NCBI GenBank assembly: GCA_964016885.1
Contig: OZ024742.1
Location: 267,034,001 to 267,098,000 of the forward strand
DNA: 64,000 bases
Origin: Eledone cirrhosa
Taxonomy: Eukaryota
Direction: 5' to 3'
Positions 10,104-63,635 of this stretch are shown here, in pieces (positions within the stretch are counted from its first letter, which is position 1; every line of letters starts with the position of its first letter). The position numbers were made by a program, and so were the translations under genes. The notes under the pieces were generated by a model. It had not been told where the DNA came from. It did not search any database and saw only the letters and a program-made list of their open reading frames with translations.

Positions 10104-10229
<126 letters not shown>

Positions 10230-10415
10230 TTCGTTTCTGAATTTGTTTAGCAAGATTCTTTATCTGAAAACGTGTGCTGAAACCGATATTGTTATACTTT
10301 GGGAGGGTCATGTTGCTAATAAGAAACACACGCACCAGTTGCTTTCACTTCAATTTATTATAATAAATTTATAAATTTAGGAATTTATAAATTTCCAGAT
10401 GGTTGTTTATATATT

Positions 10416-10458
10416 GTCAAAGTTCTTTCGTCACACATTCTGTGACCTCTTCAGTGAC
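10416..10458 (-). ncRNA. Hammerhead ribozyme motif in the inverted pLTR
   Basis: Reverse complement: GTCA-CTGAAGA-G-GTCACA gaatg TGTGAC-GAAA-GAAC-TT-TGAC. Confidence 0.7.
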
Positions 10459-10835
10459 TGCGGATTCTTTTCTTTGTTTTTGTGCCTCTCAACTAATCTT
10501 CTTACATCAACACCGATGTAAGAAGATTACAACTCACCAAAAAGCAAGCAGATAGGCTAAAACAAACATTAATTCGAAACATAAAAAAGAAGATCTATAG
10601 AGAATTAAGTCATCAAGAAAAACGTAAGCGTAACCTAATACGAGAAATAACTAAGATCACCACACCAAGAGAAAAACTAATATTTATAAGCCTTATACGT
10701 CCTGAAGAACAGTACATTGCTCAAGAATGTGATAAGCACTTTAACAAGAAACTAAAGTGGCTTAAGCAGATAAAACTAAATCATGATACTGTAGAGAATA
10801 CCAATAGATATCCCGACAAAATTGACGGGATAAAT

Positions 10836-13800
10836 ATGGCCGACATCTCATTAACAGATGAGTTCAACAACAACAACACAAATATATACGGCAACACTGC
10901 AGTAGATCCTGATGAATTATCTGTATTACAACTACCGCCTAAATATGCGACATTCAAGAAGGTAAATATGATTAGTTGTTTGTCAGAAATAGAAAAATCA
11001 TTTACAAAATTACGTTGGAGCCTCAAAAACAAAAACAAAAACAAAAGTAACAACATACGCACACATATACAACACACATCCCAACAACAACAGACACGCA
11101 GACACAAACAACAATAACAACAACACACGCATCAACAATAATAACATACTCAGAAACAACAACAGACACGCAGACACAAACAACAATAACAACACACACA
11201 ACAATAATAACACACACGGAGACAACAACAACACACATCAACAACAGCACACATCAACAATAACAACACACACACATTCAATGCCTCTCACCACCACCAC
11301 AATCTTAACAAACACACAGACACAGAAAACATGTAATGACAGTATCACACAAATAAGGGAAGGTTATAGGATTAAAAGGAGAAGGGAGACTATGGACAAA
11401 GAAAATAACCAAGTCGAACACACAGACACACAAAATAGAGTAGATAATAACAATGAGCCAGTGCAGAGAGACAGGAGTAATAATGAGAGACATAGAAACA
11501 ACCATGAGGCTGTTGGTGGAAATAGAAATAGAAACAACACAACTAACAATAACAATAGCACTAGTACACATAAAGCAGCAGCCTGGAACTCTACTTTTTA
11601 TAATCCCTCCGATAAGTCGTTCGACCTGCGACGAGTCCACGCCACGACTTTACCATTTAACAAACGCACGCAATTGCCGTCGCAGGTCGATGAACAAACA
11701 GAAGCACAATTTAGTATAGCTAGATCCGAACTTAGAAATATTATAGAACAGTATAGCAAGAAGCATAATAGAATGGAGGCCCAGCAACTGGGAGAAAAGT
11801 CTGCAAATGGCTTGCGTAAGCTCATGCAGCGCTCGCGTAATGAAGAGATAGCATGCTTTCTAACAGACAAGTCTGGCAGAATGTCGGTTGACAGCCTGCC
11901 AAACTACATCCAGGCAATGCAACCCCACACCACCAACACAAGAGAAGTAACACCACAGGAGCATGAGGATAGAGAAAAAGCCCTCAATGCCCATATAGTG
12001 ATGTGGACGAATATAATGCAGCCCAACAAAAGGACTGCCAACAACTTCCAGGCCTGGAACACTGACGTGCCGGCGTTGTATGGGCTTCGAAAAGACCATA
12101 AAACGGGCAGTGACCCTGTCACGGGACCACCAACACGGCCAGTCTGTGGTGCTAACATTGCTAGTAACTACAGACTGTCCTACTTCCTCTCCCTGATCAT
12201 ACGCCCCATCATTGAAATGTCCCCAGATGTATGTGACAGCACGGAGGACCTCCTCAGCAGAATCGGCGTGAGTAACCGATCTAGGGACCTAACAAACTGC
12301 ATAATAGGTAGTATGGATGTTGTCTCCCTGTATCCATCTATTGACGTGGATTTTGCTGTGGAGAAATGCGTAGAAATGATCAGTGAGAGTAATGTTGAGT
12401 TCCGTGGGATTGACACCAGTGAGCTGGGACGCCTACTTAAACTTACCTATAGTAATAATTACCTAGACACATATGACCTTAGCAACCTGTGCCCTACAAG
12501 ACCAGCAAGAGCCAGACCACCTACCATTACCTCAATGGCCAAGAAAACCCACACAGATAGATGGAACCGGTGGACCAGAGCCATACGGACACCCGAAAAC
12601 CACGATGAACTGAAGAAAATGATTGCACATGCGGTGGAGGCCAGCATAAAATTAACCCTTAGGGAACATATGTTCAAATTTAATGGAAAAACATATGCCC
12701 ATGAGGAAGGAGCAGCCATTGGTGTTAGCATTGCAGGCGACATAGCTAACTTATTCATGGTATGGTGGGACAGTAGACTTAAACTTAAACTTAAAGAACA
12801 ATTAGAAGACCCCTTAATCCTGATAATGTACTCCCGCTACGGTGATGATATAAACATCGTAGTTAAAACACCCACACTATAGAACAGTCAGGAATTAGAG
12901 AAAAGCACAATGGAAAGCATCCAGCAAATATCTAACTCCATCCACCAGAGTATTAGAGTTACTATAGACTACCCAAGTAAACACCCCAACCAACGATTAC
13001 CTGTACTAGACACAGAGCTCTGGTTAGATACCATTAATAACAAAAAACAAATCCTCCATTCCCATTATGCCAAGCCCATGACTTCCAAATATCTGATCCA
13101 CCGAAACTCAGCTGTTTCGGGCCATACGAAAATCAACATACTGATTGCGGATTTGGTACGGGTGCTGAGAAACGTGTCCCGCATGTGCAACCCCGAAGAA
13201 CTAGAGAGACACATACAACACTTCATCCACCGTATGCAGTTCTCTGGTTACAATCAGAGAGATAAAATCAGAGTGTATAGAGGAGCCAGAACCAAATGGG
13301 GAAAAATGGTAAATAATGACACAAATGGGACCTGCCCCTTCTAGAGGAGCACATTTTGGAATAGAATAGAAAGAACTAGGAATAAGGCTAATAGAATAAA
13401 CTCATGGTATGATAGCAATAAATACCAGAGTGTAATGTTCATCGATACAACCCCTAGAGGTGAATTAGCTTACAAATTTACAAGGGCCCTAGACAAACAT
13501 AAACTCAATATTAAGATAGTAGAAAGACCAGGTACCTCCGTAAAAACACTTATTAGCAAGACATACCCTTTTCAAAGACCCCCCCCTGTATAGATAAGAA
13601 ATGTATAACCTGTAAATTAAGCCCCCATATTAACTGTAAAACTAGAAATGTAGAATATAACATAACATGTACTGAAGGACAATGTAGAGACAAAAATATA
13701 GTGTACATTGGTGAGACAGCTCGTAGTGTAGGGGAACGGACAAATGAACACTGGCGAGACCTTCAAGATAGTAAAGAATCATCTGTACTCTACCAACATG

Positions 13801-13970
13801 CTAAACTAGAACATAAGGGTAAATTAGAGAACATAGAAATAAAAATAGAATCTACACACAGAAAAGACGCAATGTTTAGACAAATCACAGAGGCAATAAA
13901 CATAAAAGAATTACAACCAAAATTAAATAGAAAATATGAGTGGAACAGCAACATCACAACTTACAATTAA
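10836..13970 (+). pseudogene. PLE polyprotein: RT, Cys-rich linker and GIY-YIG endonuclease (disrupted)
   Basis: LPPKY..KLRW N-terminus, TDKSGR, YGLRKDHK, RPVC, MDVVSLYPSI, RYGDD, LPVLD, CxxxxCxxC..NCK linker and YIGETARS. Stops at 12880 and 13342, frameshift in the C-run near 13580, low-complexity expansion at 11030-11280. Confidence 0.9.
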
Positions 13971-14171
13971 GGACAAAATGAAAACACACACGCACATAGA
14001 ACAAACAACCAACCTGTAACATGTAAATAAACAAATAAATAAACGAATATAAACACACACAGACACCCGGATGTGGCGCATGCGCAGACTGAGCACACAA
14101 CACACACTCAGAAACAAAATGGCGTAGGACAGAACAATGGAGTGACACAAAAACAAAGAAAAGAATCCCCA

Positions 14172-14214
14172 GTCACTGAAGAGGTCACAGAATGTGTGAC
14201 GAAAGAACTTTGAC
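14172..14214 (+). ncRNA. Hammerhead ribozyme motif in the 3' pLTR
   Basis: GTCA-CTGAAGA-G-GTCACA gaatg TGTGAC-GAAA-GAAC-TT-TGAC. Confidence 0.7.
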
Positions 14215-14499
14215 AATATATAAACAACCATCTGGTTGTGGAACCAACCAAGCAACCGGAAATTAATAAATTTATTATAATAAATTGAAGTGAAAGCAAC
14301 TGGTGCGTGTGTTTCTTATTGGCAACATGACCCTCCCAAAGTATAACAATATATATATATATATATATATATATTTAAAAGAATAGAAGTGTAACACACG
14401 AGTTGTGATATATTGGTAAAAGGAAAAGAAAATGCTGACAAATTGTTCCCAGTGAAAAATAGTTTAATTAGGAATAAGTAAACATTAGTAATAAGTATT

Positions 14500-14714
14500 G
14501 GTTAGTATTCAGGTTTAGTTTTAAGTTTTTACCGGTTGCACATTTCTAATGCTTTTCAAAAATAATTTTGAGATAGAGCGCCCGTGATGGTTGCTCTAAT
14601 CCGAGGTCTCATGGTTAGATCAAACATCACGGGCGCTCTATCTCAAAATTATTTTTGAAAAGCATTAGAAATGCGCAACCGGTAAAAACTTAAAACTAAA
14701 ACTGAATACTAACC
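14500..14714. repeat. Near-perfect about 100-bp-arm hairpin
   Basis: ggttagtattcag..gagatagagcgcccgtgatg mirrored by catcacgggcgctctatctc..ctgaatactaacc. Confidence 0.9.
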
Positions 14715-31371: not shown

Positions 31372-32075
31372 GCTATTTGCATTTATTATGTAACCCAGTA
31401 TGAATCATGTTGTACATATTGCTTATGGTTAATATAATGTTAACAATTTATCATTGTATTTCACTGTGACATCTATATTGTTTCTGTAAATTAACCGGAG
31501 ATTATATATATTCTACTTTATTATATTGTATTGTATTATATAATTTTGTTGTTTATTATTTATTATAAGTGTTTCTTGTAATTATTGCCTCATGTATATT
31601 GGGTGGATGTGTTAGCATTATTTTCACTATTACCATGCTTATTTTTGATATTTTTGATGTTCAAACTTCCAATAGGGCTTAATTTCTGTGTAATAGAAAA
31701 TAGATATGTGTATTGTAATATGTGTGTGTGTGTGTGTGTGTGCGCACATATATACATGTATATATTGTACCTTTTGATTTTTGATTTGGAATTTCAGTGT
31801 TGGTATAGATATATTATTATTATAATGTATTATACTGTGTTATATATAATTCCTGCTCTATATAACCAAATTTGTTTAGATTTAAGTTGGTGACTTTGGA
31901 CTATATTTGTAATATGGTTCTTAATGTTATCTACATCCTTAGTTATTATAATTTTATTATTTTTATCTTCATTTTTATTATAGTATATCTTTGTAAGACA
32001 TTAGTGTATGTAAACTCCATATTCTTCAGAGTTTCTGGCTTGTATCTGCCGAAATTACCTCTTGTTGTTTTGATT

Positions 32076-32113
32076 GCCCTGATGAGTCCTTAATAGGACG
32101 AAACATTGTCGGC
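32076..32113 (+). ncRNA. Canonical minimal type-I hammerhead ribozyme
   Basis: GCC-CTGATGA-GTCCT taat AGGAC-GAAA-CATTG-TC-GGC, with an intact core and a GUC site. Confidence 0.85.
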
Positions 32114-32161
32114 TAATAAAAACTTTTGATGTTTTAAAGGATTCTTTGTTTTACTCTCTTA

Positions 32162-32320: not shown

Positions 32321-33096
32321 AACGGAAAAAATGAAACGAATTTTCATTTCTCACTCTTAGTACGGCTGTTACTTAAATATAAGTATGTATACGTACATAC
32401 ATATATGTATACAGACGTACAATAGTATGTATATCTTCCTGCCAGATGGTTGAACGTCTGAAAGTATATACTTTCCTTATGCATATTAACGGCTGAGCAG
32501 CCTAATTTGCATATCGAGTGAGTTAATCGGCCGGGGTACCGAAAACGATAAACGGAAAACATGAATCGAAATTTCATTTCTCACTCTTAGTACGGATGTT
32601 ACTTAAATATAAGTATCTATACGTACATACATATATGTATACAGACGTACAGTAGTATGTATATATATATATATATATATATACATACATGCACACATAT
32701 ATATATATACGTATGGATTCACCGAACATTTATTATAATGCTCGGTGTGTTTGCAAACAAACATCCCGAATTAAGCCGTACAGTGTCTAGCAACCATCGT
32801 TGCTCATTTGTCCAACGCTGACAAAGGAACGCTGTACTAGTTTCAAGCTTATTAGCTATCGTCAGCAACGTATACCTTCCTGCCAGATGGTTGAACGTCT
32901 GAAAGTATATACTTTCCTTATGCATATTAACGGCTAAGCAGCCTAATTTGCATATCGAGTGAGTTAATCGACCGTGGTACCGAACACGATAAACGGAAAA
33001 CATGAAACGAAATTTCATTTCTCACTCTTAGTACGGATGTTACTTAAATATAAGTATCTATACGTACATACATATATGTATACAGACGTACAGTAG

Positions 33097-33160
<64 letters not shown>

Positions 33161-33530
33161 CCTGCACACATATATATATATACGTATGGATTCACCGAAA
33201 TTTATTATAATGCTCGGTGTGTTTGTAAACAAACATCCCTAATTAAGCCGTACAGTGTCTAGCAACCATCGTTGCTCATTTGTCCAACGCTGACAAAGGA
33301 AGGCTGTACTAGTTTCAAGCTTATTAGCTATCGTCAGCAACGTATACCTTCCTGCCAGATGGTTGAACGTCTGAAAGTATATACTTTCCTTATGCATATT
33401 AACGGCTGAGCAGCCTAATTTGCATATCGAGTGAGTTAATCGGCCGGGGTACCGAAAACGATAAACGGAAAAAATGACACGAAATTTCATGTTCGTTGAA
33501 TCCATACGTACATATATATATGTGTGCATG

Positions 33531-33580
<50 letters not shown>

Positions 33581-33984
33581 CGTCTGTATACATATATGTA
33601 TGTACGTATAGATACTTATATTTAAGTAACAGCCGTACTAAGAGTGAGAAATGAAATTTCGTTTCATTTTTTCCGTTAATCGTTTTCGGTACCCCGGCCG
33701 ATTAACTCACTCAATATGCAAATTAGGCTGCTCAGCCGTTAATATGCATAAGGAAAGTATATACTTTCAGACGTTCAACCATCTGGCAGGAAGGTATACG
33801 TTGCTGACGATAGCTAATAAGCTTGAAACTAGTACATCATTCCTTTGTCAGTGTCGGACGAATGAGCAACGATGGTTGCTAGACACTGTACGGCTTAATT
33901 CGGGATGTTTGTTTACAAACACACCGAGCATTATAATAAATGTTCGGTGAATCCATACGTATATATATATATGTGTGTGCATGC

Positions 33985-34069
<85 letters not shown>

Positions 34070-34123
34070 TATGTATACATACTTCTGTACGTCTGTATAC
34101 ATATATGTATGTACGTATACATA

Positions 34124-34130
<7 letters not shown>
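32320..34130. mobile_element. Tandem plus inverted array of an about 470-bp ORF-less HHR-bearing unit
   Basis: The unit repeats on the minus strand (partial 32345-32580, 32580-33015, 33015-33490) and is then inverted on the plus strand (33490-34130). HHRs at 32830-32870(-), 33302-33342(-) and 33799-33839(+). Confidence 0.85.
32830..32870 (-). ncRNA. Minimal type-I hammerhead ribozyme
   Basis: Reverse complement: CGTTG-CTGACGA-T-AGCT aata AGCT-T-GAAA-CTAG-TA-CAGCG, with palindrome ACTAGT. Further copies at 33302(-) and 33799(+). Confidence 0.8.
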
Positions 34131-34161
<31 letters not shown>

Positions 34162-35022: not shown

Positions 35023-38000
35023 ATAAAAAATTGAACAGGGACAGAACAGAGAGGCAGTACGACAAATGTTTATTAGATTCACGCTCGGGAGAGTGGGGGG
35101 TAGGTGGAGGACGACGTTTCGGGCATAAGCCCTTCTTCAGGTAAGAGTTCAAAAGGTGTGTAGGGGAGTGGTGGAGAGACATATAGCGAAAGGAAACGGT
35201 GCGAATGAAAAATTAACAAATAAAGACAAAAATATAATAAATAATAAATAAAAATAAAGCATGATCAAAATACAAGGAATGAGAACATTTAAAAATAAAG
35301 GCATGATCAAAATAAACTGAAATTAAAAGGGGGGTAAACAGGTGGTGGAAGGGTGTGGGGTGAGTAGAGGTGGAGGCGGGTGGAGTGGGGAGAGGGAGAC
35401 GGGGTGTCCGAGCGGGGAGGGCTGAAGGTGGTGTGTGTGGTTAGGTGTGCGTGTGTGTGTGTGTGTGTGTATGTGAAACTGAGGGTTGGGGGAAGAACGG
35501 GGTTGCATGTTCAGGAAGGTGTGTGTGGGGGGTGTTTTTGTGTGTCGGAGGGTCTGTGCGTGTGTGGATAGGGGGTGGGGGGAGAGGAATCAGGGGGCTG
35601 AGGGTGTAAATATGTGGTGGGAAGCACGTGTGTGTGGTGGTTTAAGCGTGTTGTGGGTGTGGGTGGCGTGTGGATAAAAAAAATTTGTTTGGGGATGTGT
35701 GTGTGGGTGAGTTATATAGGTGATGGTGTTAGAGGATGGTTGAAAGTGGTAAGTTACACGGATGTATGGAGATTTGGGTTGGAAGTCAAAACGTGTGTGT
35801 GTAATCCAAGAAGCGGTGGTCGGAAGAGGAGAGATGTGGGGTGCGCGCGCAACAGGAAGTGGTCAGCAGTGGAAGTGCTGTGGTCAGTTGGTGCTGAGAC
35901 AGTGGTCGGAAGGGCATAGCAGCAGTCAGCGGAATGGTAGGGAGGCGAGGATGGGTAGGTGTGAGAGTTGGAGTGAGGAGGGTGTGTGTGTGTGTGTGTA
36001 TTAGTAGGGGTGTTAGTGGGATGAGTGAGTGTGGAGTGGGGAGAGAAAGGTGTGTGTGGTTCTATGGAGGGAGTGTGGTGTACTGGTGCGTGTGTAGTTT
36101 GGTGAGGAGGTGTTAGTGGGTGTTAGTAGACGGGAGGTGGGGAGGGGTGGAATTCAGGTGTGAGTGGGGGTTAGTGGGGGTAGGGTGTGTAGAGTTGGTG
36201 GTGTACGAGGGTGTGTGGGTACGTGTGCGTGGGGTTGGAGGGTGTTAGTGATGTTAGTTGCGTGTGGGGTGGGTGGTGTGAGTGTGTGCGTGTGATAAGG
36301 AGGGGGGAGGAGGAGAAGAGGGGAGGGAAGGGATGTTAGTATGTTAGTTGGGGAAGGGTGGTTAGATGAGGGGTGGAGTGGAGGTGGTAGTATTGTTAGT
36401 GTGGGGTGGGCGGTGAAAAGGAGGGGTGTGTTAGTGGTGTTAGTGGGGGATAAGTGGGGGAGGGGGGCGGTCGAACGCTAAAGGAATAAGGGTGGGGAGT
36501 TCAGGCCGGGGGGAGTGTGGGTCTGTAAGAGGAAGATAGTACGTTGTTCGACCGTGAGGCGATGGGCGGGTGTTCCGTGGCACTGGAGTAGGCCACAGAC
36601 TGTGAGATGGTGTGCGGAGTGTCCAAGGCCACCAAAGTGGCGGGAGATGGGGGAACTGCCCCCGAGACGAATGTCCCGGAGGTGCTCTGTGACTCGGTCC
36701 GCCAGGCGGCGTCCCGTCTGTCCGACATAAGTCGCGCTGCACCTCGTGCAACGAAGTCCGTAGACTAGGTTGGAGGAGGTGCAGCGGAAGGCATGCCGGA
36801 CCGAGAGAGGGTGGCCGTTGGGACCCTGGAAGGTGGTGGTGTTGGTGATATGGGGACAGGTGTTGCAGCGGGGCCTAGAACAGGGGAAGGAACCGGGGGG
36901 GAAACGGAGCGTGGGTTGGGGGGTAGGGAGCTGTGGACGAGGAGGGTGCGGAGATTGCGTGCGCGTTTGAAGGAGGGGAGTGGTGGGGTTGGGAAGATGT
37001 GGGAGGTGGAGGGGTCGGACTGGAGGTGTCGGAAGAGGCGGCGGATGGTGCGGTGGAGGGGTAAGGTGGAGGGGTGGTAGGTGATGGGGAAGGGGAGACG
37101 GTGGGTGGGTGTGCGGTGGCGTGGGGTGAGGGTGGTAGAGCGGGGGATAGCACGGGCGCGGGTGAGAGCGGTGTCGACGAGAGAGGGGGGGTAACCTCTG
37201 CGGATGAAATGGCTGACTAGGGAAAGGGCTTGGGACTCGAAGTCAGCATCTCGGCTACAGAGGCGGCGGATCCTGAGAAGTTGGGAGTAGGGAATGGAGA
37301 GTTTAGTGTGGGTGGGGTGGGAAGAGGTGAAGTCGAGGTAAGAGTGAGAGTCGGTGGGTTTGAAGAAGGCGGAGGTGACGAGGGAGTGGTGGGAGGGGTC
37401 GAAGGCGACGGAGATGTCCAAGAAGTGGACGTGGGTGGTGGAGATAGAGGTGGTGAAGTGGAGGGAGGGGTGGAAGGAGCAGAAGAAGGAAAGAAAGGAG
37501 TCGAGCTGTACTCGGGTGAGGGTCGTGGGTCCGATACAGTCGTCAATGTAACGACCGTACAGTTCGGGCGTGGGGCCGGTGTACTGGGCAAAGATTTGGG
37601 CCTCAACATGGCCAACAAAAAGGTTGGCATAGTTCGGGCCCATTCTTGTGCCTATGGCTACCCCCGTGACCTGTTGGTAAAACTCACCCGAGAAGGAGAA
37701 ACAATTTAGGGTGAGGACCAGCTCGGCGAGGCGAAGGAGGGTGGGGGTGGAGGGAATGGGGGAGGGGCGAAGGTCGAGGTAGTGTTTGAGGGCGCGAAGG
37801 CCGTCGGCGTGGGGGATGACGGTATAGAGGGACTTGATGTCTAGGGTGAAGAGGAATGGCTGAGGGCCGGGTAGGTAGGTGAAGGAGTCGAAAAGGCGCA
37901 GGGCGTGGTTGGTGTCAGAGATGTGGGAGGGGAGGGTGGTGACAAGAGGGGCGAGGAGGGAGTCGAGAAAGGCGGAGATGAGTTCGGTGGGGCAGTTGCA

Positions 38001-38336
38001 AGCGGAGACGATGGCACGGCCGGGGTTGTCGGGTTTGTGGAGTTTGGGGAGGAAGTAGATGGTGGGGGTGCGGGGTGTGCGGACGATGAGGTGGGAAGCG
38101 GTGGGGGGAGGAGGGAGGAGGCGATAAGGTCTTTGATGGTGGAGGAGACTTGTTGTTGGTAGAGGGGGGTGGGATCGGAGGGTAGAGGGCGGTAAAAGAG
38201 GGGGTTACAGAGCTGCCTGAGGGCTTCGGCCTTGTAGAGGTCCGCGCGCCATACCACCACGGTGCCTCCCTTGTCCGCCGGTTTGATGACGATGTCATCT
38301 CGGCTACGGAGGGAGCGGAGAGCGAGGAGTTCGCCC
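35022..38336 (-). mobile_element. Penelope/Poseidon-type PLE, 5'-truncated, in (TA)n
   Basis: [40 protein letters not shown] and GIY-YIG YVGQTGRRLADRVTEH, with frameshifts. Long C-rich 3' UTR carries a HHR-like CTGAAGA-A-GGGC ttat GCCC-GAAA-CGTCG-TC at 35105-35146. Confidence 0.9.
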
Positions 38337-43104: not shown

Positions 43105-43108
<4 letters not shown>

Positions 43109-43691
43109 CGTTTCTGAATTTGTTTAGCAAGATTCTTTATCTGAAATCGTGTGTTGAAACCGATATTGTTATACTTTGGGAGGGTCATGTTGCCAATAAG
43201 AAACACACGCACCAGTTGCTTTCACTTCAACTTAATTTAATATATATTTATAAATTTACAAATTTATAAATTTCTGGTTGGTTGGTTGGTTGGTTCCACA
43301 ACCAGATAGTTGTTTATATATATATAATCATAGTTCTTTCGTCACACACTCTGTGACCTCTTCAGTGACTGGGGATTTCTTTCTTCGTTTCTGTGCCTTT
43401 CCTTTCTTCTATCCTACGCCATTTTGTTTGTCAAACAAAATGGCGTAGGATAGAAGAAAGGAAAGGCACAGAAACGAAGAAAGAAATCCCCAGTCACTGA
43501 AGAGGTCACAGAGTGTGTGACGAAAGAACTATGATTATATATATATAAACAACTATCTGGTTGTGGAACCAACCAACCAACCAACCAGAAATTTATAAAT
43601 TTGTAAATTTATAAATATATATTAAATTAAGTTGAAGTGAAAGCAACTGGTGCGTGTGTTTCTTATTGGCAACATGACCCTCCCAAAGTAT

Positions 43692-43700
<9 letters not shown>
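43105..43700. mobile_element. Fold-back made only of pLTRs of the 10.2-14.3 kb Penelope family
   Basis: Perfect palindrome centred near 43431 (cattttgtttg-t-caaacaaaatg). HHRs at 43327-43369(-) and 43493-43535(+). Same outer termini as the ORF-bearing copy. Confidence 0.92.
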
Positions 43701-43721
<21 letters not shown>

Positions 43722-43729
<8 letters not shown>

Positions 43730-44835
43730 AATAAATAACAAAGAACGCTTATAGCATATGCATATCTTTACTTGCTAACATTGTTTCATCCACACTATAA
43801 GTGGGACTCATCAGAGCATAAAGGTTAAATTACATACCATACAAGCAATAACAAATCCAAGACATTGAAGAATGAAAGGTAATAATAGACGATAGAGGAT
43901 AAGAATAAAAAGTAAATAAAAATAAAAATAAAAGTGAAAATAAAAATAAAAATAAAAATAAGGGGTGCTATCTGTCACAGTTGGGCGGTGTGCTGTCAAC
44001 ATATAGTTACATACAATCATACACATGGATAAGAGAACAGACAAGAGTAGACACATGGATAAGAGAACAGACAAGAGTAGATAAGATAATGGGATTAGGT
44101 AAGAGTAGGTAAAAAATAGGTAAAAAATAGGTAAAAAACAGACTTATAATATATATAAAAAGAAATACAAAGAAATACATAACAAACTTACATATAAAAT
44201 ATAAAATATAGGGTAAGGAATGAGATAAAATAATATACAATTAAAAATTAAAAATTATATACATAGAACATAATATAGTATAATCGTAAAATAAGATAAA
44301 ATAAGGTAATCTATATTATAAGTCTGTTTTTTACCTATTTTTTACCTATTTTTTACCTACTCTTACCTAATCCCATTATCTTATCTACTCTTGTCTGTTC
44401 TCTTATCCATGTGTCTACTCTTGTCTGTTCTCTTATCCATGTGTATGCTTGTATGTAACTATATGTTGACAGCACACCGCCCAACTGTGACAGATAGCAC
44501 CCCTTATTTTTATTTTTATTTTTATTTTCACTTTTATTTTTATTTTTATTTACTTTTTATTCTTATCCTCTATCGTCTATTATTACCTTTCATTCTTCAA
44601 TGTCTTGGATTTGTTATTGCTTGTATGGTATGTAATTTAACCTTTATGCTCTGATGAGTCCCACTTATAGTGTGGATGAAACAATGTTAGCAAGTAAAGA
44701 TATGCATATGCTATAAGCGTTCTTTGTTATTTATTTATTATATTACGGCTCTGTCCTCAGACATTGAGCTAACCTCATACTGCCTGCTGGATAAGTGGAG
44801 TGTTATACACCCCTGATCCTTTCCCTAGCATACTA
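43722..44835. mobile_element. Fold-back HHR module (arms 43722-44153 and 44312-44743, tail to about 44835)
   Basis: HHR TGCT-CTGATGA-GTCCCAC ttata GTGTGGAT-GAAA-CAATG-TT-AGCA at 44647-44692(+) and 43773-43818(-). Confidence 0.88.
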
Positions 44836-46357: not shown

Positions 46358-47500
46358 ATGGCTAACCAGCAAAAATCCAAACAGAACTGGTCTGATAATG
46401 AAATCGACATTCTAATAAACACATGGCATTGCCTTACCCAAACAGAAGACATACATGCTTCATCTCTGAACGACATTGCTAAACGTACAGTTCAATTTTT
46501 GAAAACTCGATCTGAACAACAGATTCAAAATAAATTAAAGCAAATCGAAATTGTTTTTAAATTAATCAATAAACATTTGGATAAACTACGGTGTGTTTTT
46601 TCTTCGAATACTGTCCAGCAACAACAACAACAGCAGCTACAATGACAACAACAACAACAGCTACAACAACAACATCAACAACAGCAACAACAACAACAAC
46701 GACAACAACAGTGTGAACCACTCCTTGATTCATCAACAATGGCCGATCTACTAAATGAAACTATTGACCCCCCAGTAGCCTCTGTCTCACAGCATGAAAC
46801 GCCACATCCTTTCTCTGGCCCAGCAGTCCAATCATCACCACTGCCAACATCTCTGCCTACTACTACTACTACTACAACATTTTTGTCTACTGCTATGTCA
46901 AGGAATTTACCTTCTAATACCAGAACAAGAACTCTCCCTCCCACAGTCCACAAAGGTCGTCAAATCCTACCCAAACCATCATCTACACCTCTAACAACAC
47001 ACACACCCACATACCCACCCACTCGAAACCCCATCATTTGCCGCTACTCTCTACGCTATAGAATATGTACGGATAGTGGCTGCAAATTCACCCATTTACC
47101 TAGGACAAAACGATCTATCCCCACAAACAGCCACCACCATAATACATACTCTAATTTAACACCAACACAACCACCAATAACTCAAACAAGGAATCCACAA
47201 ATCTGCCGTTTTTCCCTGCGAGACAGATTGTGTTTAGACCGGGATTGTCCCTTTACCCATCTCCCGGGGACCCGCCGGACAAATGAAAATAAAATTAAAA
47301 ATAAAAGCAAAAACAAAAACCATAACCTACATAAAAATAACCACTACCACAGTCACCAACAGTCTTCTAAACAGGAAACTTCTTCCTCTTTTTTAGCCAT
47401 AATGAATCTGGCAAAAGAACTGGAAAAAAACATTCGAGCTATCACCCAGCACCACCCTCCACTATCACCCCACTGCACAAACTCCCATTGCTGCCATTAA
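46358..47500 (+). pseudogene. LINE ORF1: Myb/SANT-like N-terminus, polyQ, P/T-rich linker and two CCCH zinc fingers, with one premature TGA
   Basis: 46358-46645 and 46739-47500 are in the same frame, separated only by TGA at 46643 within a CAA run. Motifs are WSDNEIDILINTW..RSEQQIQNKL, CRYSLRYRICTDSGCKFTH and CRFSLRDRLCLDRDCPFTH. Confidence 0.75.
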
Positions 47501-50500
47501 CAAACAAACAAATTAACAACACACCAAAACAATTAAAACCATCCACTCTCGCCTCTACATTTTTGCTTAACGCCCAAGGCATCAGCCCTTCCACCAATAC
47601 TCAAAAATGGAAGATCAAATTCCTGGAGGACTGGATTGATGTCCATCCAAACCACATCCCTTTCTTCGTCCTCACTGAAACCCATCTCAGTAACCTCCAC
47701 TTGGAAGCCGAGGTGAAAGTGAAAAATTTCAAAGCCATCCGTGCTGATCGCGCTGGCAGAAGAAAGGGCGGAACTGCCATTTATGTCCATAATTCTTTCT
47801 CAACAGAGTCTATGAACATATTCACTGATGGATACTGTGAAGCAGTCACTGTATTCAGTCAAACCAACAACCTATTAGTAGTTGGGCTCTATAGGCCACC
47901 CCAAACGCCTGTACCATGCTTCAAGGAATGCCTCAACAGCATAAAGTGTTTCATCCAAGAGTGTCACCCTGACAACATCTTAATGATGGGGGACTTCAAC
48001 CTCCCCGGAGTTGACTGGTCCACAAACAGCCTGCCACCAGGTTCTTCTGCCTCAACCTCTGACAGGGAAGCTGTGGAATCGCTTCTTGACTTCATGGATG
48101 ATTTCTTCCTATCCCAACTGGTGCTCGAACCAACGAGGTGCCACAAAAACGTCCTAGACTTAATTTTCAGCAATCACACTGACAATATCCACAATATTGC
48201 AGTGGAGAAAACTCTACTCTCTGATCATGACATGGTTCTCTGTGATCTGAGATTCCACCGTCCAATATACAAACCCAATGTCATCTCTCCTGTCCATCCG
48301 TTTGACGCTATGGATTTCCACAATGCAAACTGGGAAGCGATCAGTCATGATCTTGCACATGTCGACTGGTCCTTCACGCACACTCATACACCCACTAACA
48401 TCAAAAAGTCCTGGCAGACATTTGTGGACACTGTTACAAACATATGTGCTAAACACACCCCATTAAGAACTATAAACAAATCTAAGAGCAGAATCCCTAG
48501 AAATAGAAAAACGCTCATCAGAAAAATTAAGAGAACGAACAAAAAAATCAACAAGCTGAAATACTGTCAGCAGCAACGCATCAACTTGACTGCCATTTCA
48601 TCACTAGAGATTAAAAAACATAACCTCCAAAACAACATAATGTCCCTCATCAACAATCAGAGAAGAGCTGAAGAGGCCTGGGCCATTGAGAAGATCAAAC
48701 TCAATCCCAAAGTGTTATTTTCATTTGCAAAAAAACACAAAATCACTGGCTCTACTGTTGGCCCTCTAATTGATGAAAATGGCACTCTTCAAGACAATGC
48801 TAAAACCATGGGTGAGATACTGCAGAAACAATACTGCTCTGTTTTCAGCAATCCTGATATGGCCAATCTGGGCTGTATCGGCGATGTTACTCCCCATTAC
48901 ACCTTATCGGACATAACGTTTGGCGCCCCTGATGTCTTGGCGGCAATAAAGGAAATCAAGCATAATTCAGCAGTAGGTCCCGATAGGTTCCCTGCTTGTG
49001 TCTTGAAGGCGTGTCAACACCAACTTGCATCTCCTCTTGCCAATCTGTGGCGGAACTCGCTGGATGCTGGATATGTGCCAGAAAACCTTCTATCCCAGTC
49101 TGTTGTCCCAGTTTTCAAAAAGGGAAACAAATCCCTTGCCGTGAATTACCGTCCAATCTCACTCACCTCTCATATCATTAAGGTATTTGAGAGAGTGGTG
49201 AGATCGCGAATGACCCACTTCCTTGAAAGTAACAATATGCTGAACTCCAACCAGCATGGATTCCGTAATGGAAGGGATTGCCTGACGCAGCTACTGCATC
49301 ACTTTGATGACATTTTGAGAGCCTTGGGAGAGGGTTCCAACACTGATGTTATCTACCTTGATTTCAGCAAGGCCTTTGACAGGGTTGATCATAACATTCT
49401 ACTGAGAAAGCTGTCCAATATTGGTGTCACTGGAAAGCTGCTGCAGTGGATCAAGAGCTTCCTGTCAAACAGAACTCAACATGTTGTAGTTGAGGGAGTC
49501 AAATCAAGCCCAGCCAAAGTCAGTAGTGGGGTCCCACAAGGCACTGTGTTGGGCCCACTTCTCTTCATCATCTATATTAATGACATCACTGACATCATCA
49601 AACACAGCAACATTAAAATTTTCGCTGATGATTCCAAGCTCCAAAAGGTCATCAATGGCGTGGATGACCGGATAAGCCTTCAGTCAGACCTACTGGCTGT
49701 TACCCAATGGGCAGAAAAGAACAACATGCTACTGAACGAAGACAAATTCGAACTGATCCACTTTGGAAAAGAGGATGCTCTGAAACTCCCGTACTCCCTT
49801 CCCTCCGGGGAAACTCTCGTGGCATCTAACAACATCAGAGACTTGGGAGTAACCGTGGACAGCAACATAAGCTGGACCACGCATATAAGCAGCAAAGTTG
49901 ACATGGCCCGCAGAATGTGTTCCTGGATCCTCAGAACCTTCCAGTCGAGAGATTCCCGCACCATTATCCTTCTCTTCTCTACTTTTGCCCGACCACACCT
50001 TGAATACTGTTGTCCACTGTGGTCTCCCCACACGAAACAAAGTATCATGAAACTTAAAGCTCCTCAAAGGGCAATCACGAAAAAGATAGATGGCATGTCA
50101 GACCTTGACTACTGGGGTCGATTAGAAAACCTGAAACTTTACTCACTCCAACGTCGCCGTGAGCGTTATATTATCTGCATGATGTGGAAAATGTTCCATC
50201 ATCACTGCCCAAATGATGTTGGCATCGCCTTCAAGATACACCCAAGGCTTGGGCCCCGTGCTATCCGTCCCATTCAAAAATCTAAATCGCAACTCATAAC
50301 AACAATACGGCACAATTATTTCACCTCAATCGGCCCTGCTCTCTTCAACATCACACCAGGACACGTCAAAACAGAAACTGACCACACAAAATTCAAGAAG
50401 TCTTTGGACAAATTCCTCCAAGTAATCCCGGACAAACCACCCACACCCGGATATGTCTCCGCAAACAGTAATTCTCTTCTCGAATGGGCCATGGTGCCCA

Positions 50501-50508
50501 AATCCTGA
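47371..50508 (+). CDS. LINE ORF2 (APE endonuclease + reverse transcriptase), intact reading frame
   Basis: LTETHL, GGTAIY, MGDFN, LDLIF, SDH, NYRPISLT, QHGF, DFSKAFDRVDH, GVPQGTVLGPLLF, FADD and LEYC..WSPH. The frame opens after the TAA at 47368, and the first ATG (47812) lies inside the APE domain. Confidence 0.93.
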   Translation, partial: TGNFFLFFSHNESGKRTGKKHSSYHPAPPSTITPLHKLPLLPLTNKQINNTPKQLKPSTLASTFLLNAQGISPSTNTQKWKIKFLEDWIDVHPNHIPFFVLTETHLSNLHLEAEVKVKNFKAIRADRAGRRKGGTAIYVHNSFSTESMNIFTDGYCEAVTVFSQTNNLLVVGLYRPPQTPVPCFKECLNSIKCFIQECHPDNILMMGDFNLPGVDWSTNSLPPGSSASTSDREAVESLLDFMDDFFLSQLVLEPTRCHKNVLDLIFSNHTDNIHNIAVEKTLLSDHDMVLCDLRFHRPIYKPNVISPVHPFDAMDFHNANWEAISHDLAHVDWSFTHTHTPTNIKKSWQTFVDTVTNICAKHTPLRTINKSKSRIPRNRKTLIRKIKRTNKKINKLKYCQQQRINLTAISSLEIKKHNLQNNIMSLINNQRRAEEAWAIEKIKLNPKVLFSFAKKHKITGSTVGPLIDENGTLQDNAKTMGEILQKQYCSVFSNPDMANLGCIGDVTPHYTLSDITFGAPDVLAAIKEIKHNSAVGPDRFPACVLKACQHQLASPLANLWRNSLDAGYVPENLLSQSVVPVFKKGNKSLAVNYRPISLTSHIIKVFERVVRSRMTHFLESNNMLNSNQHGFRNGRDCLTQLLHHFDDILRALGEGSNTDVIYLDFSKAFDRVDHNILLRKLSNIGVTGKLLQWIKSFLSNRTQHVVVEGVKSSPAKVSSGVPQGTVLGPLLFIIYINDITDIIKHSNIKIFADDSKLQKVINGVDDRISLQSDLLAVTQWAEKNNMLLNEDKFELIHFGKEDALKLPYSLPSGETLVASNNIRDLGVTVDSNISWTTHISSKVDMARRMCSWILRTFQSRDSRTIILLFSTFARPHLEYCCPLWSPHTKQSIMKLKAPQRAITKKIDGMSDLDYWGRLENLKLYSLQRRRERYIICMMWKMFHHHCPNDVGIAFKIHPRLGPRAIRPIQKSKSQLITTIRHNYFTSIGPALFNITPGHVKTETDHTKFKKSLDKFLQVIPDKPPTPGYVSANSNSLLEWAMVPKS

Positions 50509-52235: not shown

Positions 52236-52705
52236 ACAAACATAGAATATTCGAAAATATTCTGTATGTTTATAATAAACATTTTGAAGACCCAATCGCT
52301 ATAGAATAGAATACGTCACGTATTACAATTTGAGATTCTCGATAAAAGCAAGGGAAGTAATCTACGCGTTTCATTCTTATTAGAAATCATCAGGATTACA
52401 TATCCAGTGCTTTTATCGAGAACGACACAGCTAGAGACTTATAGAATACTTAGCTGTGTACAGGAACTGGTTTGAAAGAGCGGTAGCCGGTCCGGCAGAA
52501 ATTAGAATTTGGATTTAATGCTCTAAAATAGCGATATATATGTGAAGACAAACATAGAATATTCGAAAATATTCTGTATGTTTATAATAAACATTTTGAA
52601 GACCCAATCGCTATAGAATAGAATACGTCACGTATTACAATTTGAGATTCTCGATAAAAGCAAGGGAAGTAATCTACGCGTTTCATTCTTATTAGAAATC
52701 ATCAG
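52232..52705 (-). mobile_element. ORF-less partial-tandem HHR element, period 312 bp
   Basis: Direct repeats at 52233-52393 and 52545-52705. HHR reverse complement GTAATC-CTGATGA-TTTCT aata AGAAT-GAAA-CGCG-TA-GATTAC at 52357-52399. Confidence 0.88.
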
Positions 52706-52708
52706 ATT

Positions 52709-53368
52709 TAGAGTATAGATGTTTGGTATTCCAGAAGAAGTATTTTAACAGAAGTTTCATTTGTTCCTAAAACAATAACAAAAAAACTTACAATATTATT
52801 TAACTAGCATTCAAAGAATAGCCACATGGATGAAACTATGAATATAATGCGTTCTGGTATCTCTAGATGAATAAAGAGAAAATTCCAAACATTTATATCA
52901 GTAAATATTTATTCTCTCGATGTATCTTTCAAATGTTACAATATATATATAGTATATAGTATATATATATATATACATACGACTGTACGTCTGTATACAT
53001 ATATGTATGTACGTATACATACTTATATATATAAATATATATATATATATATAAGTATGTATACGTACATACATATATGTATACAGACGTACAGTCGTAT
53101 GTATATATATATATATACTATATACTATATATATATTGTAACATTTGAAAGATACCTCGAGAGAATAAATATTTACTGATATAAATGTTTGGAATTTTCT
53201 CTTTATTCATCTAGAGATACCAGAACGCATTATATTCATAGTTTCATCCATGTGGCTATTCTTTGAATGCTAGTTAAATAATATTGTAAGTTTTTTTGTT
53301 ATTGTTTTAGGAACAAATGAAACTTCTGTTAAAATACTTCTTCTGGAATACCAAACATCTATACTCTA
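52709..53368. repeat. Near-perfect 660-bp palindrome centred on (TA)n
   Basis: tagagtatagatgtttgg... mirrored by ...ccaaacatctatactcta, with one visible mismatch. Confidence 0.92.
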
Positions 53369-54176
53369 GCTCTGCACTTGTATCTTTCCTACTGCTTTTG
53401 CTACTGTTATTAACATATTTGCTACTGTTCGCTGCTGAACAGGTGTTAAGCATCTGCTTTACTGCCAACTGACATTGGCTGAATTTGGTAGAATATTGCA
53501 CAACATGATTGCCTAGTGATGCATCGTCTATATATATGTTCTTCGTGTATTATTATTTTTGTAGCGTTTTCAATTTTCATTATACAATTACAATCAGCAA
53601 ACGTCGTAGTGCATCCAAGGCATGCTGCATTTTAATCGTGCTGGTTCCTTCTGAAATAATTCAGTTTATGCAACGACTTTTCATTCCATTTAAAATAAGC
53701 ACCTGAGGAGGAAATGTTATGATGTTATAGCATTGTATAAGATATTTTTGTGTTTTTAACTCGGTGGAATATGTACTTCAAATTTCGATTCCTTCCATAA
53801 AGAATACAATTATGTTTACATTTTCAGATGCTGTTTTAATTAATCATCGGGTATTTTGTTCCTGTGTTGCCGGCTATGGCTCATACCGCGTAATTAGCTA
53901 TGATTAAATCACTTATGGGTCTTGGGGTAGTGAGCTTTGGTTGCATGTAGGACGAGGAGAGACATGGTAAAGATAATGGTATCAGTCATCGAACGTGCTG
54001 CTTCTGATCGGCCAGAGGTGTCTGTTAGCATGAGAAATAGTAGACACTTTAATACGGTAGACCTAATTGAAACACAAGCCATTTCGTTTATTTATTGTAA
54101 ACTGGCAGTCGTACATATTTTTCTCAGATGAATTATTGACAAACCGAAACAATTAATCTTTTTACTTTAGCGCACG

Positions 54177-58283: not shown

Positions 58284-58311
<28 letters not shown>

Positions 58312-59105
58312 TTGCAAAATTTCTTATCTGAAAACGTGTGTTGAAACACATATTGTTGTACTTTGCATGCAGCCAATAAAACACACGCACCTGCTGATTT
58401 TCAATTCAATTTATTATAAACATCCAGTTGGGTTGTTTATTAACCGGATGGTTGTTTATTTATTTATTATCAAAGCTCTTTCGTGACACATTTCCTGACC
58501 TCCTCAGTAACTAATTTGTTATTTTGTGTCTCCCCTTTATTCCGCTCTACACAAAACAGCTCACAAAAACAAGATGGTGTAGGACAGAACAAAGGAGATA
58601 CACAAAATAAGAAATTAGTCGCTGACGAGATCATAGAATATATATATCTGCACGCGCATGCAACACAATCACTAAGAGCACCACCACTACACAGCTTATG
58701 CACCCAGCACCAACGTCCCCATCAACACCACCACCACTACCACTAATGCTACCACGAAAGCACAGAGCAAAGAAGAGACACAAAATAACAAAATCAGTTA
58801 GTGAGGAAGTCACAGAATGTGTGGCGAAAGAGCTTTGACAATCAACAAATATATCTATACGTTTATGTATTTGTTCTGCAAGATATTTTATGTAAAATCG
58901 TGTGTTGAAACTAATATTGTTATATCACGTTTGTGCCTTCTCCTTTTGGTACTCTTAAACGTGTGTTTCTTTTAACTGGTAATATTGGCAACATAGCCAA
59001 GAATATGGAGTAGAAGTTTAAGAATGAGTAAAGGGGAGACACAAAACAAATAATCATTCAGTATTTCACAGAATTCGTGACGAAAGAACTTTGATAAACA
59101 ATTGA
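58284..59105. mobile_element. Diverged pLTR fold-backs related to the 10.2-14.3 kb Penelope family
   Basis: atttgtt..gcaa..atctgaaaacgtgtgttgaaac at 58284 and 58870. HHR-like motifs at 58468-58510(-), 58797-58840(+) and about 59065-59095(+). Confidence 0.75.
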
Positions 59106-62906: not shown

Positions 62907-62976
62907 TGTGTGTGGGTGTAGTTGTGTGTATGGGTGTGGGTGTGGGTGTAGATATGTATTTATATATATATAATAA

Positions 62977-63635
<659 letters not shown>

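What the first reader, a model, noticed from the sequence alone, without database searches (positions are those of the whole stretch)
43105..43700. Autonomous and non-autonomous pair in one window: a pLTR-only palindrome with the same termini as the Penelope at 10227-14350
Both start with ttcgtttctgaatttgtttagcaag after (TA)n and end with ccctcccaaagtataacaat(at)n. The 43 kb copy lacks the 3.6-kb ORF region and is a perfect palindrome. This links the fold-back modules directly to a Neptune-type RT/GIY-YIG element and shows that the ends and the roughly 58-nt one-sided tail are reproducible. Diverged relatives lie at 58284-59105.
Basis: seen in the sequence. Interest (0 to 1): 0.75.

Follow-up and report, generated by a model that had tools for sequence, protein, structure and literature searches.

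The report
Mirror-image Penelope stub, not separate family
The palindrome is a real, young, two-armed stub of a very common Penelope-like jumping gene, one of about a thousand stubs joined at the same short stretch, and it is likely a by-product of the full-length element's own insertion (two copies made from one RNA and joined head to head) rather than a self-copying partner of the broken long copy nearby.

Summary
In detail: 43163-43699 is a 537-bp palindrome with a 56-nt tail on the left only, in (TA)n, with the same ends as the 10230-14352 element and different flanks. The autonomous/non-autonomous pair does not hold. The 10-kb copy is 5'-truncated, broken, and of another subfamily (about 82%). 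The stub matches the front end of an intact 1,268-aa copy elsewhere at 319 of 321 bases. The genome has over 11,600 tailed ends. Joints vary (43 distinct of 53). Only 31 copies share this exact joint, and their tail lies left or right of the centre about equally (16:12), so the palindrome is not copied as a unit. Short copies form no clade of their own. Arms usually differ in length; in 27 of 68 the tail-less arm is longer, which plain fold-back cannot make. About 1,070 joints sit in one 30-nt stretch and often read T-[C/G]-A, which suggests run-off at a capped RNA start. Likely mechanism: both cut strands prime on one RNA at two sites 56 nt apart. The nuclease linker is Nematis-like, not Neptune-like. 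The shape is published; the mechanism is inferred. The scan reached similar readings on other DNA of this genome.

The parts
43107..43162 (-). 56-nt one-sided tail. In intact copies it follows the pLTR and is ORF coding sequence (about codons 9-28); its outer end abuts ATAT of the target repeat
43163..43430 (-). Left (tailed) arm: one pLTR of the young subfamily; with the tail, 319 of 321 bases match the 5' pLTR+tail of intact copy L259
43431..43432 (.). Head-to-head joint, T-C-A type; the same joint string occurs 31 times genome-wide, with the tail on either side
43432..43699 (+). Right (tail-less) arm, exact mirror of the left arm; ends in ACAAT-AT(AT)n
43436..43445 (+). CAAAATGGCG just downstream of the stretch where arms start (mirror 43417-43426). 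Resembles a YY1 site (motif recalled, not tested); predicted transcription-start region
   Evidence: sequence
43493..43535 (+). Minimal type I hammerhead motif: GUCA stem I, CUGAAGA plus one extra base, 5-bp stem II, GAAA, predicted cut after CUA; activity untested
   Evidence: motif scan; stems I and II in the fold (z -0.41, not significant on its own); features as in PMC4209133
43327..43369 (-). Mirror copy of the hammerhead motif
43105..43188 (-). ORF stub: start codon and first 28 codons of the RT-endonuclease ORF, running into (TA)n; the right arm holds the first 9 codons from 43674
10230..10490 (-). Long copy: tail plus 5'-truncated inverted pLTR (starts about 30 nt downstream of the hot spot)
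10505..14352 (+). Long copy body: 5'-truncated, broken RT + GIY-YIG ORF (stops at 12880-12882 and 13342-13344, two frameshifts) and tail-less 3' pLTR; older subfamily
58305..58512 (-). Diverged relative: tail-like end plus pLTR with hammerhead motif, 69% identical to an intact unit
58549..59105 (.). Further diverged pLTR and tail fragments (58549-58639, 58759-58842, 58849-58924; a piece near 59030-59105 seen by eye)

Best explanation
The 43-kb palindrome is a single insertion of two head-to-head front ends (pLTRs) of a high-copy Penelope-like retrotransposon, likely made when both cut strands of a (TA)n target primed reverse transcription on one element RNA and both copies ran off its predicted capped start. 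Shown: two fixed 3' end points 56 nt apart, each followed in the intact element by ATATCG; one arm uses each; arm lengths are mostly unequal; the two arms of an insert usually share a haplotype; arm starts pile up in one 30-nt stretch; intact ORF copies carry the same pLTR. Inferred: the RT-endonuclease cuts both strands of (TA)n; each 3' end pairs with the AUAU at one of the two sites; each cDNA is extended until it stalls or reaches the RNA's 5' end; the two cDNA ends are joined, through 1-5 nt microhomology at internal stops or through a cap-copied C at the RNA start. The full-length RNA begins with pLTR+tail, so priming at that front copy of the two sites would give only 270-325 nt arms, i.e. 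this ORF-less palindrome, without a dedicated non-autonomous source.
For: Family structure: of 93 inserts anchored on the tail, 68 have an inverted partner arm; its outer end is tail-less in 59, tailed in 4, lost in 5. Tailed arm longer in 26, tail-less arm longer in 27, equal within 15 nt in 15; Spearman rho 0.21, p 0.08. A fold-back of one cDNA cannot give a short tailed arm plus a longer tail-less arm. One template: 55 of 63 listed arm pairs were not flagged discordant (5 of the 63 rows are repeats or mispairings), against a median of 16 differences between random arms; this includes very unequal inserts (L105 0, L143 1, L146 0, L152 2 differences). Hot spot: 16 of 161 arm starts lie in 14095-14124, against 4 in the 45 nt upstream and 3 in the 30 nt downstream; 1,072 joins match the hot-spot pattern; one hot-spot position gave 305 matches (about 39 of the first 100 are truncations, by eye) against 6 at a control position about 45 nt upstream. 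Joints: of 52 hot-spot loci, 22 read T-[C/G]-A and 1 reads T|A; a uniform blunt-join null expects about equal shares, p 4e-6; 0 of 45 resolved internal joints are blunt T-[C/G]-A and 19 show microhomology. Not inherited as a unit: 43 distinct joints of 53; in 30 of the 31 copies with this exact joint the tail is left of the centre in 16, right in 12, unseen in 2. No short-only lineage: short and long arms need 30 label changes on a 123-row tree; 1,115 of 2,092 arms of this subfamily keep the upstream sequence; the one haplotype that looked short-only was long in 7 of 30. Intact ORFs of 1,265-1,318 aa from the ATG in L256-L260. Literature: two RT start sites bound the tail, both target strands are cut and extended, dimer predicted (PMC11167929); pLTR holds an internal promoter in D. 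virilis (PMC2377424); an extra G at full-length 5' ends is attributed to the cap in L1/SVA (PMC3287187, PMC11702581).
Against: No RNA evidence: the one RNA run found held 0.04 of the words and is kept as contigs, so the start site and cap are not shown. In 20 of the 22 T-[C/G]-A joints the middle base could be a templated base of the partner arm; it is clearly untemplated in 2, plus 3 similar C/GA inserts. By eye only 8 of about 39 truncations listed begin with G, and none of the 14 joined straight to (TA)n. The null is crude. Equal arms are more common than chance (15 of 68 against 3.8); three are hot-spot pairs and three rest on an alignment artefact at 14260, but about eight remain at internal sites and fit fold-back too. 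The 10-kb joint itself holds a short hairpin-like templated inversion. Some inserts have discordant arms (L158/L159, L071, L110, L133). Later gene conversion could also make arms alike. 17 of 99 tails end 2 nt early, where the 4-nt match to the target is absent. Short arms cluster a little on the tree (30 changes against 38.8 shuffled), and up to 47% of this subfamily's arms lack the exact upstream sequence. The 93 inserts are consecutive hits from the first 45 Mb of one contig, not a random draw.
Confidence: 0.68

Rival explanations
1. Self-priming fold-back: one cDNA (or an antisense RNA) snaps back near its end and is copied to give the second arm; the hot spot is a preferred stall or hairpin site.
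For: Excess of equal-length arms (15 of 68 against 3.8); arms usually identical; short templated inversions at some joints, including the 10-kb copy; self-priming is the published reading of such junction palindromes (PMC3846280).
Against: In 27 of 68 inserts the tail-less arm is the longer, and the shorter arm carries a tail that the longer lacks. The 43-kb joint has a one-base centre, too tight for a priming loop (inference). Fold-back does not explain why one end is tailed and the other not in 59 of 63 scored inserts.
Confidence: 0.17
2. A non-autonomous family: pLTR-only copies keep an internal promoter and both start sites, are transcribed and are mobilised in trans by the long element.
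For: About 1,070 hot-spot joins; up to 47% of the young subfamily's arms start near the hot spot; ten identical short tailed arms had no identical long tailed arm in the tree sample; trans-mobilisation by pLTRs and non-autonomous PLE derivatives are published (PMC3846280; PMC8557442; bioRxiv 10.64898/2026.07.22.740005).
Against: Joints are not inherited and tail side is about even; the common young haplotype is carried by long copies, including intact L258 and L259 (15 long of 18 arms); the candidate short-only haplotype has long copies; stubs lose the ATATCG after the tail and the ORF sequence beyond it, which the anole element needs in vitro (PMC11167929). A short source that passes on arms but not joints is not excluded.
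Confidence: 0.12
3. The palindrome arose from a long two-armed copy by deletion of the ORF, by gene conversion, or is an assembly artefact.
For: Inverted repeats recombine and can be mis-assembled (established knowledge); the arms are 100% identical.
Against: Deletion would not stop repeatedly within one 30-nt stretch with a recurring joint trinucleotide. An assembly mirror would not leave a 56-nt tail on one side only, 31 times at one joint with both polarities and mostly unrelated flanks. Raw reads across this locus were not examined.
Confidence: 0.03

Closest known systems
EN+ Penelope-like element insertions with inverted 5'-truncated pLTR and one-sided tail (PMC3846280, PMC8557442, PMC2377424; passages read)
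   Same: Single RT + C-terminal GIY-YIG ORF starting inside the pLTR; tail = next ORF codons; inverted truncated copy head to head; palindromic joints; tandem full-length units; (TA)n targeting; hammerhead motif in the pLTR.
   Different: Tail is 56 nt, not 30-40. About 1,070 ORF-less palindromes join in one 30-nt stretch. The passages read explain palindromes by self-priming; arm lengths here favour two separate primings.
Poseidon of Anolis carolinensis (PAc) in vitro (PMC11167929; first half of the text read)
   Same: Two internal RT start sites bounding the tail; AT-rich target; both strands cut and extended; start sites lie near the ORF start.
   Different: PAc start sites are reported as not homologous to the cut DNA; here both main end points abut ATAT, matching the target. 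Different clade. No biochemistry here.
L1 twin priming and cap-derived extra G (PMC11702581, PMC3287187; passages read)
   Same: Second reverse transcription primed from the other target end gives an inverted piece; extra G at full-length 5' ends.
   Different: In L1 the second primer lands at variable internal sites and gives non-overlapping pieces; here both start sites are fixed and the arms overlap fully, giving mirror images.
Nematis-clade PLEs (Fig. S2 text of PMC8557442)
   Same: CX4CxxC linker, then 7 residues to the next Cys, and YIGET.
   Different: RT motif 4 (GAAIGVSIAGDIAN) matches neither the Nematis nor the Neptune rows of Fig. S1 closely; no reference tree was built.
Non-LTR retrozymes (bioRxiv 10.64898/2026.07.22.740005; first fifth read)
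   Same: ORF-less, type I hammerhead, pLTR-derived.
   Different: Retrozymes are head-to-tail tandem repeats; this is a head-to-head pair with no lineage of its own.

Membership tests
EN+ Penelope-like element | Single ORF with RT and C-terminal GIY-YIG endonuclease | tested here: met
   1,268-aa ORF in L259 with YVDD and VVY...YIGET. Pfam GIY-YIG on the 10-kb fragment is weak, E 0.0058, below cut-off, and Pfam found no RT family on its pieces
EN+ Penelope-like element | pLTRs from partial or full tandem arrangement | tested here: met
   Units of about 4.3-4.4 kb in tandem, pLTR+tail reading into the body (L256-L260, L263)
EN+ Penelope-like element | Inverted 5'-truncated copy and one-sided tail | tested here: met
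   68 of 93 inserts two-armed; partner end tail-less in 59; tail 56 nt
EN+ Penelope-like element | CCHH zinc-finger motif in the endonuclease | tested here: met
   Two Cys between VVY and YIG, two His downstream, read by eye in P0002
EN+ Penelope-like element | Hammerhead motif in the pLTR | tested here: met
   Core motif at 43497(+), 43365(-), 14176(+), 10454(-), 58507(-). Not among the 150 Rfam matches shown of 199; cleavage not testable here
Neptune clade | CX2-5CxxC linker before the endonuclease | tested here: met
   CIDKKCITC in P0002; shared with Nematis and Naiad
Neptune clade | Long spacer (over 20 residues) between CxxC and the next Cys; YVG[QM]T | tested here: not met
   7 residues and YIGET here; the two Neptune rows seen in Fig. 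S2 are long. Compared by eye
Nematis clade | Reduced linker | tested here: met
   7-residue spacer as in Nematis_C4 and Nematis_Cr, by eye
Nematis clade | RT groups with Nematis in a reference phylogeny | not tested
   No clade-named reference proteins among the 120 homologues listed
Non-autonomous self-propagating family (MITE- or SINE-like) | Fixed internal structure inherited between copies | tested here: not met
   43 distinct joints of 53; tail side 16:12 among identical joints
Non-autonomous self-propagating family (MITE- or SINE-like) | Own clade or private variants | tested here: not met
   30 label changes on the tree; haplotypes shared with long and intact copies. Sample only, not the whole genome
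Non-LTR retrozyme | Head-to-tail tandem units each with a type I hammerhead | tested here: not met
   Two head-to-head copies only
Autonomous element (10-kb copy) | Intact ORF with 5' pLTR in sense orientation | tested here: not met
   Residues 28-71 missing, two frameshifts, two stops

The most novel reading that the evidence does not exclude
This family records the unsolved in vivo insertion step of Penelope-like elements: an RT-endonuclease dimer primes both ends of a (TA)n cut on one RNA by 4-nt pairing at two repeated AUAUCG sites 56 nt apart, both copies can run to the cap, and a cap-copied C joins them head to head. Priming at the front copy of these sites on the full-length RNA mass-produces ORF-less ribozyme palindromes, maps the transcription start from DNA alone, and may seed divergent internal promoters at about a thousand sites.
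Probability: 0.4. Interest if true: 0.62.

Novelty: new member of a known kind. Interest (0 to 1): 0.38.

Why it matters
How Penelope-like elements form their inverted ends and one-sided tail is named as open in the papers read (PMC8557442, PMC11167929). This family is young, has over 11,600 tailed ends and intact ORFs, and its copies separate the two candidate mechanisms: unequal arms and random tail side favour two primings over fold-back. It gives exact predictions (two start sites, a transcription start, a cap-derived joint). In practice, such palindromes should be annotated as truncated Penelope insertions, not as MITEs, microRNA hairpins or a new non-autonomous family. The claimed pair in this window is a chance neighbourhood of two subfamilies.

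Tried and rejected
Segmental duplication of the two loci: flanks match only in microsatellites. MicroRNA: Rfam hairpin hits over the palindrome all lie below their gathering scores and follow from the perfect symmetry. Fixed fold point: rejected. Short-only lineage: one haplotype was short in 8 of 8 sampled arms but long in 7 of 30 loci when searched directly, one reading into the body. An apparent second pile-up of arm starts at 14260 is an artefact of indels against the 10-kb reference and was set aside. A cap test by single-position pattern was blurred by point variants of long copies and was read by eye only. Fold energies of the hammerhead and tail are not better than shuffles (z -0.41, -1.29, +0.61). 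Expression: seven runs listed, one RNA run with a share of 0.04, all kept as contigs; no read data were obtained, so the RNA start stays open. The protein atlas gave no result. Literature: 'twin priming' with 'Penelope-like' gave 3 papers, seen as listings only, none about PLE insertion by title (where no PLE paper held the phrase); 'Penelope, YY1, pLTR' gave 0; 'Penelope, pLTR, transcription start, promoter, untemplated' gave 4 with none on this point by title. Arkhipova 2006 and Evgen'ev and Arkhipova 2005 were not read and may already discuss these shapes; supplements of bioRxiv preprints were not seen. Rows dropped: of the first 100 tail matches 99 were examined; 6 were left out before the count of 93 (4 inner tails reading into the body, 1 second end of the same insert, 1 unmapped arm). 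Of 68 two-armed inserts 62 were parsed at the joint and 52 resolved. One tandem duplicate was dropped from 53 joints to give 52, of which 9 stayed unparsed.

Full report
1. Observation. The stretch 43163-43699 equals its own reverse complement at 536 of 537 positions; only the central T (43431) is unpaired. The left arm carries 56 further bases (43107-43162) that the right arm lacks, and both ends run into (TA)n. The element at 10230-14352 has the same two ends: tail and inverted pLTR on the left, a tail-less pLTR on the right. The flanks share only microsatellites. The pieces at 58.3-59.1 kb are diverged relatives, 69% over 249 columns at best.

2. The family. The window lies in a 3.0-Gb assembly. 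The closest named protein to the family's RT-endonuclease is an Octopus vulgaris protein at 70% identity, so the host is probably an octopus (inference). Exact patterns find 11,641 tailed ends and 13,325 tail-less ends. Tandem units of about 4.3-4.4 kb carry uninterrupted ORFs of 1,265-1,318 aa counted from the ATG (L256-L260, among 12 stretches fetched for their spacing). The ATG lies inside the pLTR, and the tail is the next stretch of coding sequence, as described for Pen2a of Adineta (PMC3846280, passages). Both end points are followed in the intact element by ATATCG. The pLTR holds a minimal type I hammerhead motif with the extra base between positions 9 and 10.1 that PMC4209133 describes (passages; scan); its activity is untested.

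3. The supposed pair. The 10-kb copy aligns to an intact protein in pieces: residues 72-260, 356-1143 and 1136-1268, in changing frames, with stops at 12880 and 13342. It is not autonomous as it stands. Its pLTR differs from the 43-kb arm at 22 of 245 columns, whereas long copies L015 and L189 differ at 1-2. The tailed 43-kb arm matches the front of intact copy L259 at 319 of 321 bases, plus one extra AACC unit. The stub is a product of a younger subfamily, and its closeness to the 10-kb copy is expected at this copy number.

4. Fixed or varying joints. I examined 99 of the first 100 tail matches (first 45 Mb of contig C1) and kept 93 inserts. 68 have an inverted partner arm, whose outer end is tail-less in 59, tailed in 4 and lost in 5. 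The tailed arm is longer in 26, the tail-less arm in 27, and they are equal within 15 nt in 15 (3.8 expected by permutation). Arm starts spread over the whole element but pile up at 14095-14124 in the 10-kb copy's numbering: 16 of 161, against 4 and 3 in the neighbouring bins. Genome-wide, 1,072 matches join two arms there (a few are nested or tandem repeats). Among 53 such joints 43 are distinct strings. The exact 43-kb joint occurs 31 times. In the 30 fetched, the tail lies left of the central T in 16 and right in 12, unseen in 2; with both ends called it is 10:10 (L202, L203 and L223 look alike and may not be independent). A palindrome copied as a unit would keep one side. Short and long arms interleave on a tree of 123 tailed arms (30 changes; shuffled mean 38.8, so mild clustering; bootstrap not settled). 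In the stub's subfamily 1,115 of 2,092 arms keep the exact upstream sequence, and 21 of the first 30 are long. The one haplotype that looked short-only proved long in 7 of 30 loci.

5. Mechanism. Shown: two fixed 3' ends, one per arm; mostly unequal arms; arms of one insert usually alike even when very unequal, with some discordant cases. Inferred: a short tailed arm cannot template a longer tail-less arm, and a tail-less arm cannot template a tail, so at least the 27 inserts with a longer tail-less arm need two separate primings. PAc in vitro cuts and extends both strands, starts at two internal sites that bound its tail, and is predicted to be a dimer (PMC11167929, parts 1-2 of 4 read). Here both main end points abut ATAT, so 4-nt pairing with the cut (TA)n is likely, though 17 of 99 tails end two bases earlier. 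The hot spot is likely the RNA's 5' end: it lies at the pLTR front, where D. virilis Penelope has an internal promoter (PMC2377424, passages), just before a YY1-like motif (recalled). Of 52 hot-spot joints, 22 read T-[C/G]-A and 1 reads T|A; a uniform blunt-join null gives 42% and 41%. None of 45 resolved internal joints is a blunt T-[C/G]-A, and 19 show microhomology. This fits a cap-copied base, as reported for L1 and SVA (PMC3287187, PMC11702581, passages), but in 20 of the 22 the base could also belong to the partner arm, and only 8 of about 39 truncations begin with G by eye. No RNA data test it. Because the full-length RNA opens with pLTR+tail, priming at that front copy and running to the start gives exactly this ORF-less palindrome. 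Against a single mechanism: about eight equal-armed inserts at internal sites, and short templated inversions such as the one at the 10-kb joint, fit fold-back or a broken RNA copied twice.

6. Comparison with what is known. The shape is the textbook EN+ PLE insertion: an inverted 5'-truncated copy and a tail on one end (PMC8557442, passages; PMC8969392, passages). It works like the published elements and meets their defining features. It differs in its 56-nt tail and in the mass of pLTR-only palindromes. It is not Neptune by the endonuclease linker: 7 residues separate CxxC from the next Cys and the motif is YIGET, as in the Nematis rows of Fig. S2 (supplement text; by eye); a long-linker Neptune-like element lies separately at 36478-38204. 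The RT clade was not tested. It is not a retrozyme, which is a head-to-tail array (bioRxiv 10.64898/2026.07.22.740005, part 1 of 5). Passages of PMC13282606 and PMC12602865 held nothing on these palindromes. My searches found no paper applying twin priming to PLEs, but two older reviews were not read.

7. Earlier scan notes. After stating my reading I found eight unreviewed notes from this genome that reach similar conclusions on other loci. They are not independent evidence and did not change the analysis.

8. Verdict. Real feature, known kind, new family member. The autonomous/non-autonomous pair is not supported. The value lies in the family statistics, which favour twin priming with run-off at a predicted capped start (confidence 0.68) and give direct tests. 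Interest 0.38.

Noticed in passing
window 43722-44743: A second, unrelated inverted repeat (435-bp arms, 99.5%, spacer about 150 bp) begins right after the palindrome's (TA)n; each arm holds a CTGATGAG...GAAA hammerhead motif (44651 +, 43814 -). Probably another Penelope-type family.
   Followed up: partly
window 36478-38204 (-): A different Penelope-like element with a long CxxC linker, YVGQT and GVAIGTRMGPNYAN, i.e. Neptune-like; C-rich coding strand.
   Followed up: no
window 62969-63352, 33045-34133, 52703-53374, 14500-14714, 39986-41044/42062-43106, 34229-35022/51520-52197: Further palindromes and inverted repeats of 82-99% identity; several carry hammerhead-like cores.
   Followed up: no
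window 10491-10530: Short hairpin-like templated inversion at the joint of the 10-kb copy, suggesting local fold-back before joining.
   Followed up: partly
window 10286-10490 vs 14140-14352: The two pLTRs of the 10-kb copy differ by indels (89%); the left one has an AT-rich block like the younger subfamily's and lacks the AACC run. Possibly two templates or a later change.
   Followed up: no
L259:1946-5749 (P0002): The intact ORF has an Asn/Thr/His-rich low-complexity insert (about residues 245-480) of variable length and frame between copies, upstream of the RT; N-rich inserts are described in Adineta PLEs at other positions.
   Followed up: no
window 47371-50508 and L194: A 1,045-aa endonuclease-RT frame of a LINE; a near-identical copy is inserted in L194 on another contig, so that family is young too.
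   Followed up: no
window 32073-32117: Best Rfam Hammerhead_1 match in the window, 31.7 bits against a gathering score of 34.
   Followed up: no
rows, e.g. G000:C1:9932467 and C1:60071499: Some inserts have a partner arm made of only a few bases of the tail, joined to a hot-spot arm through a G.
   Followed up: no
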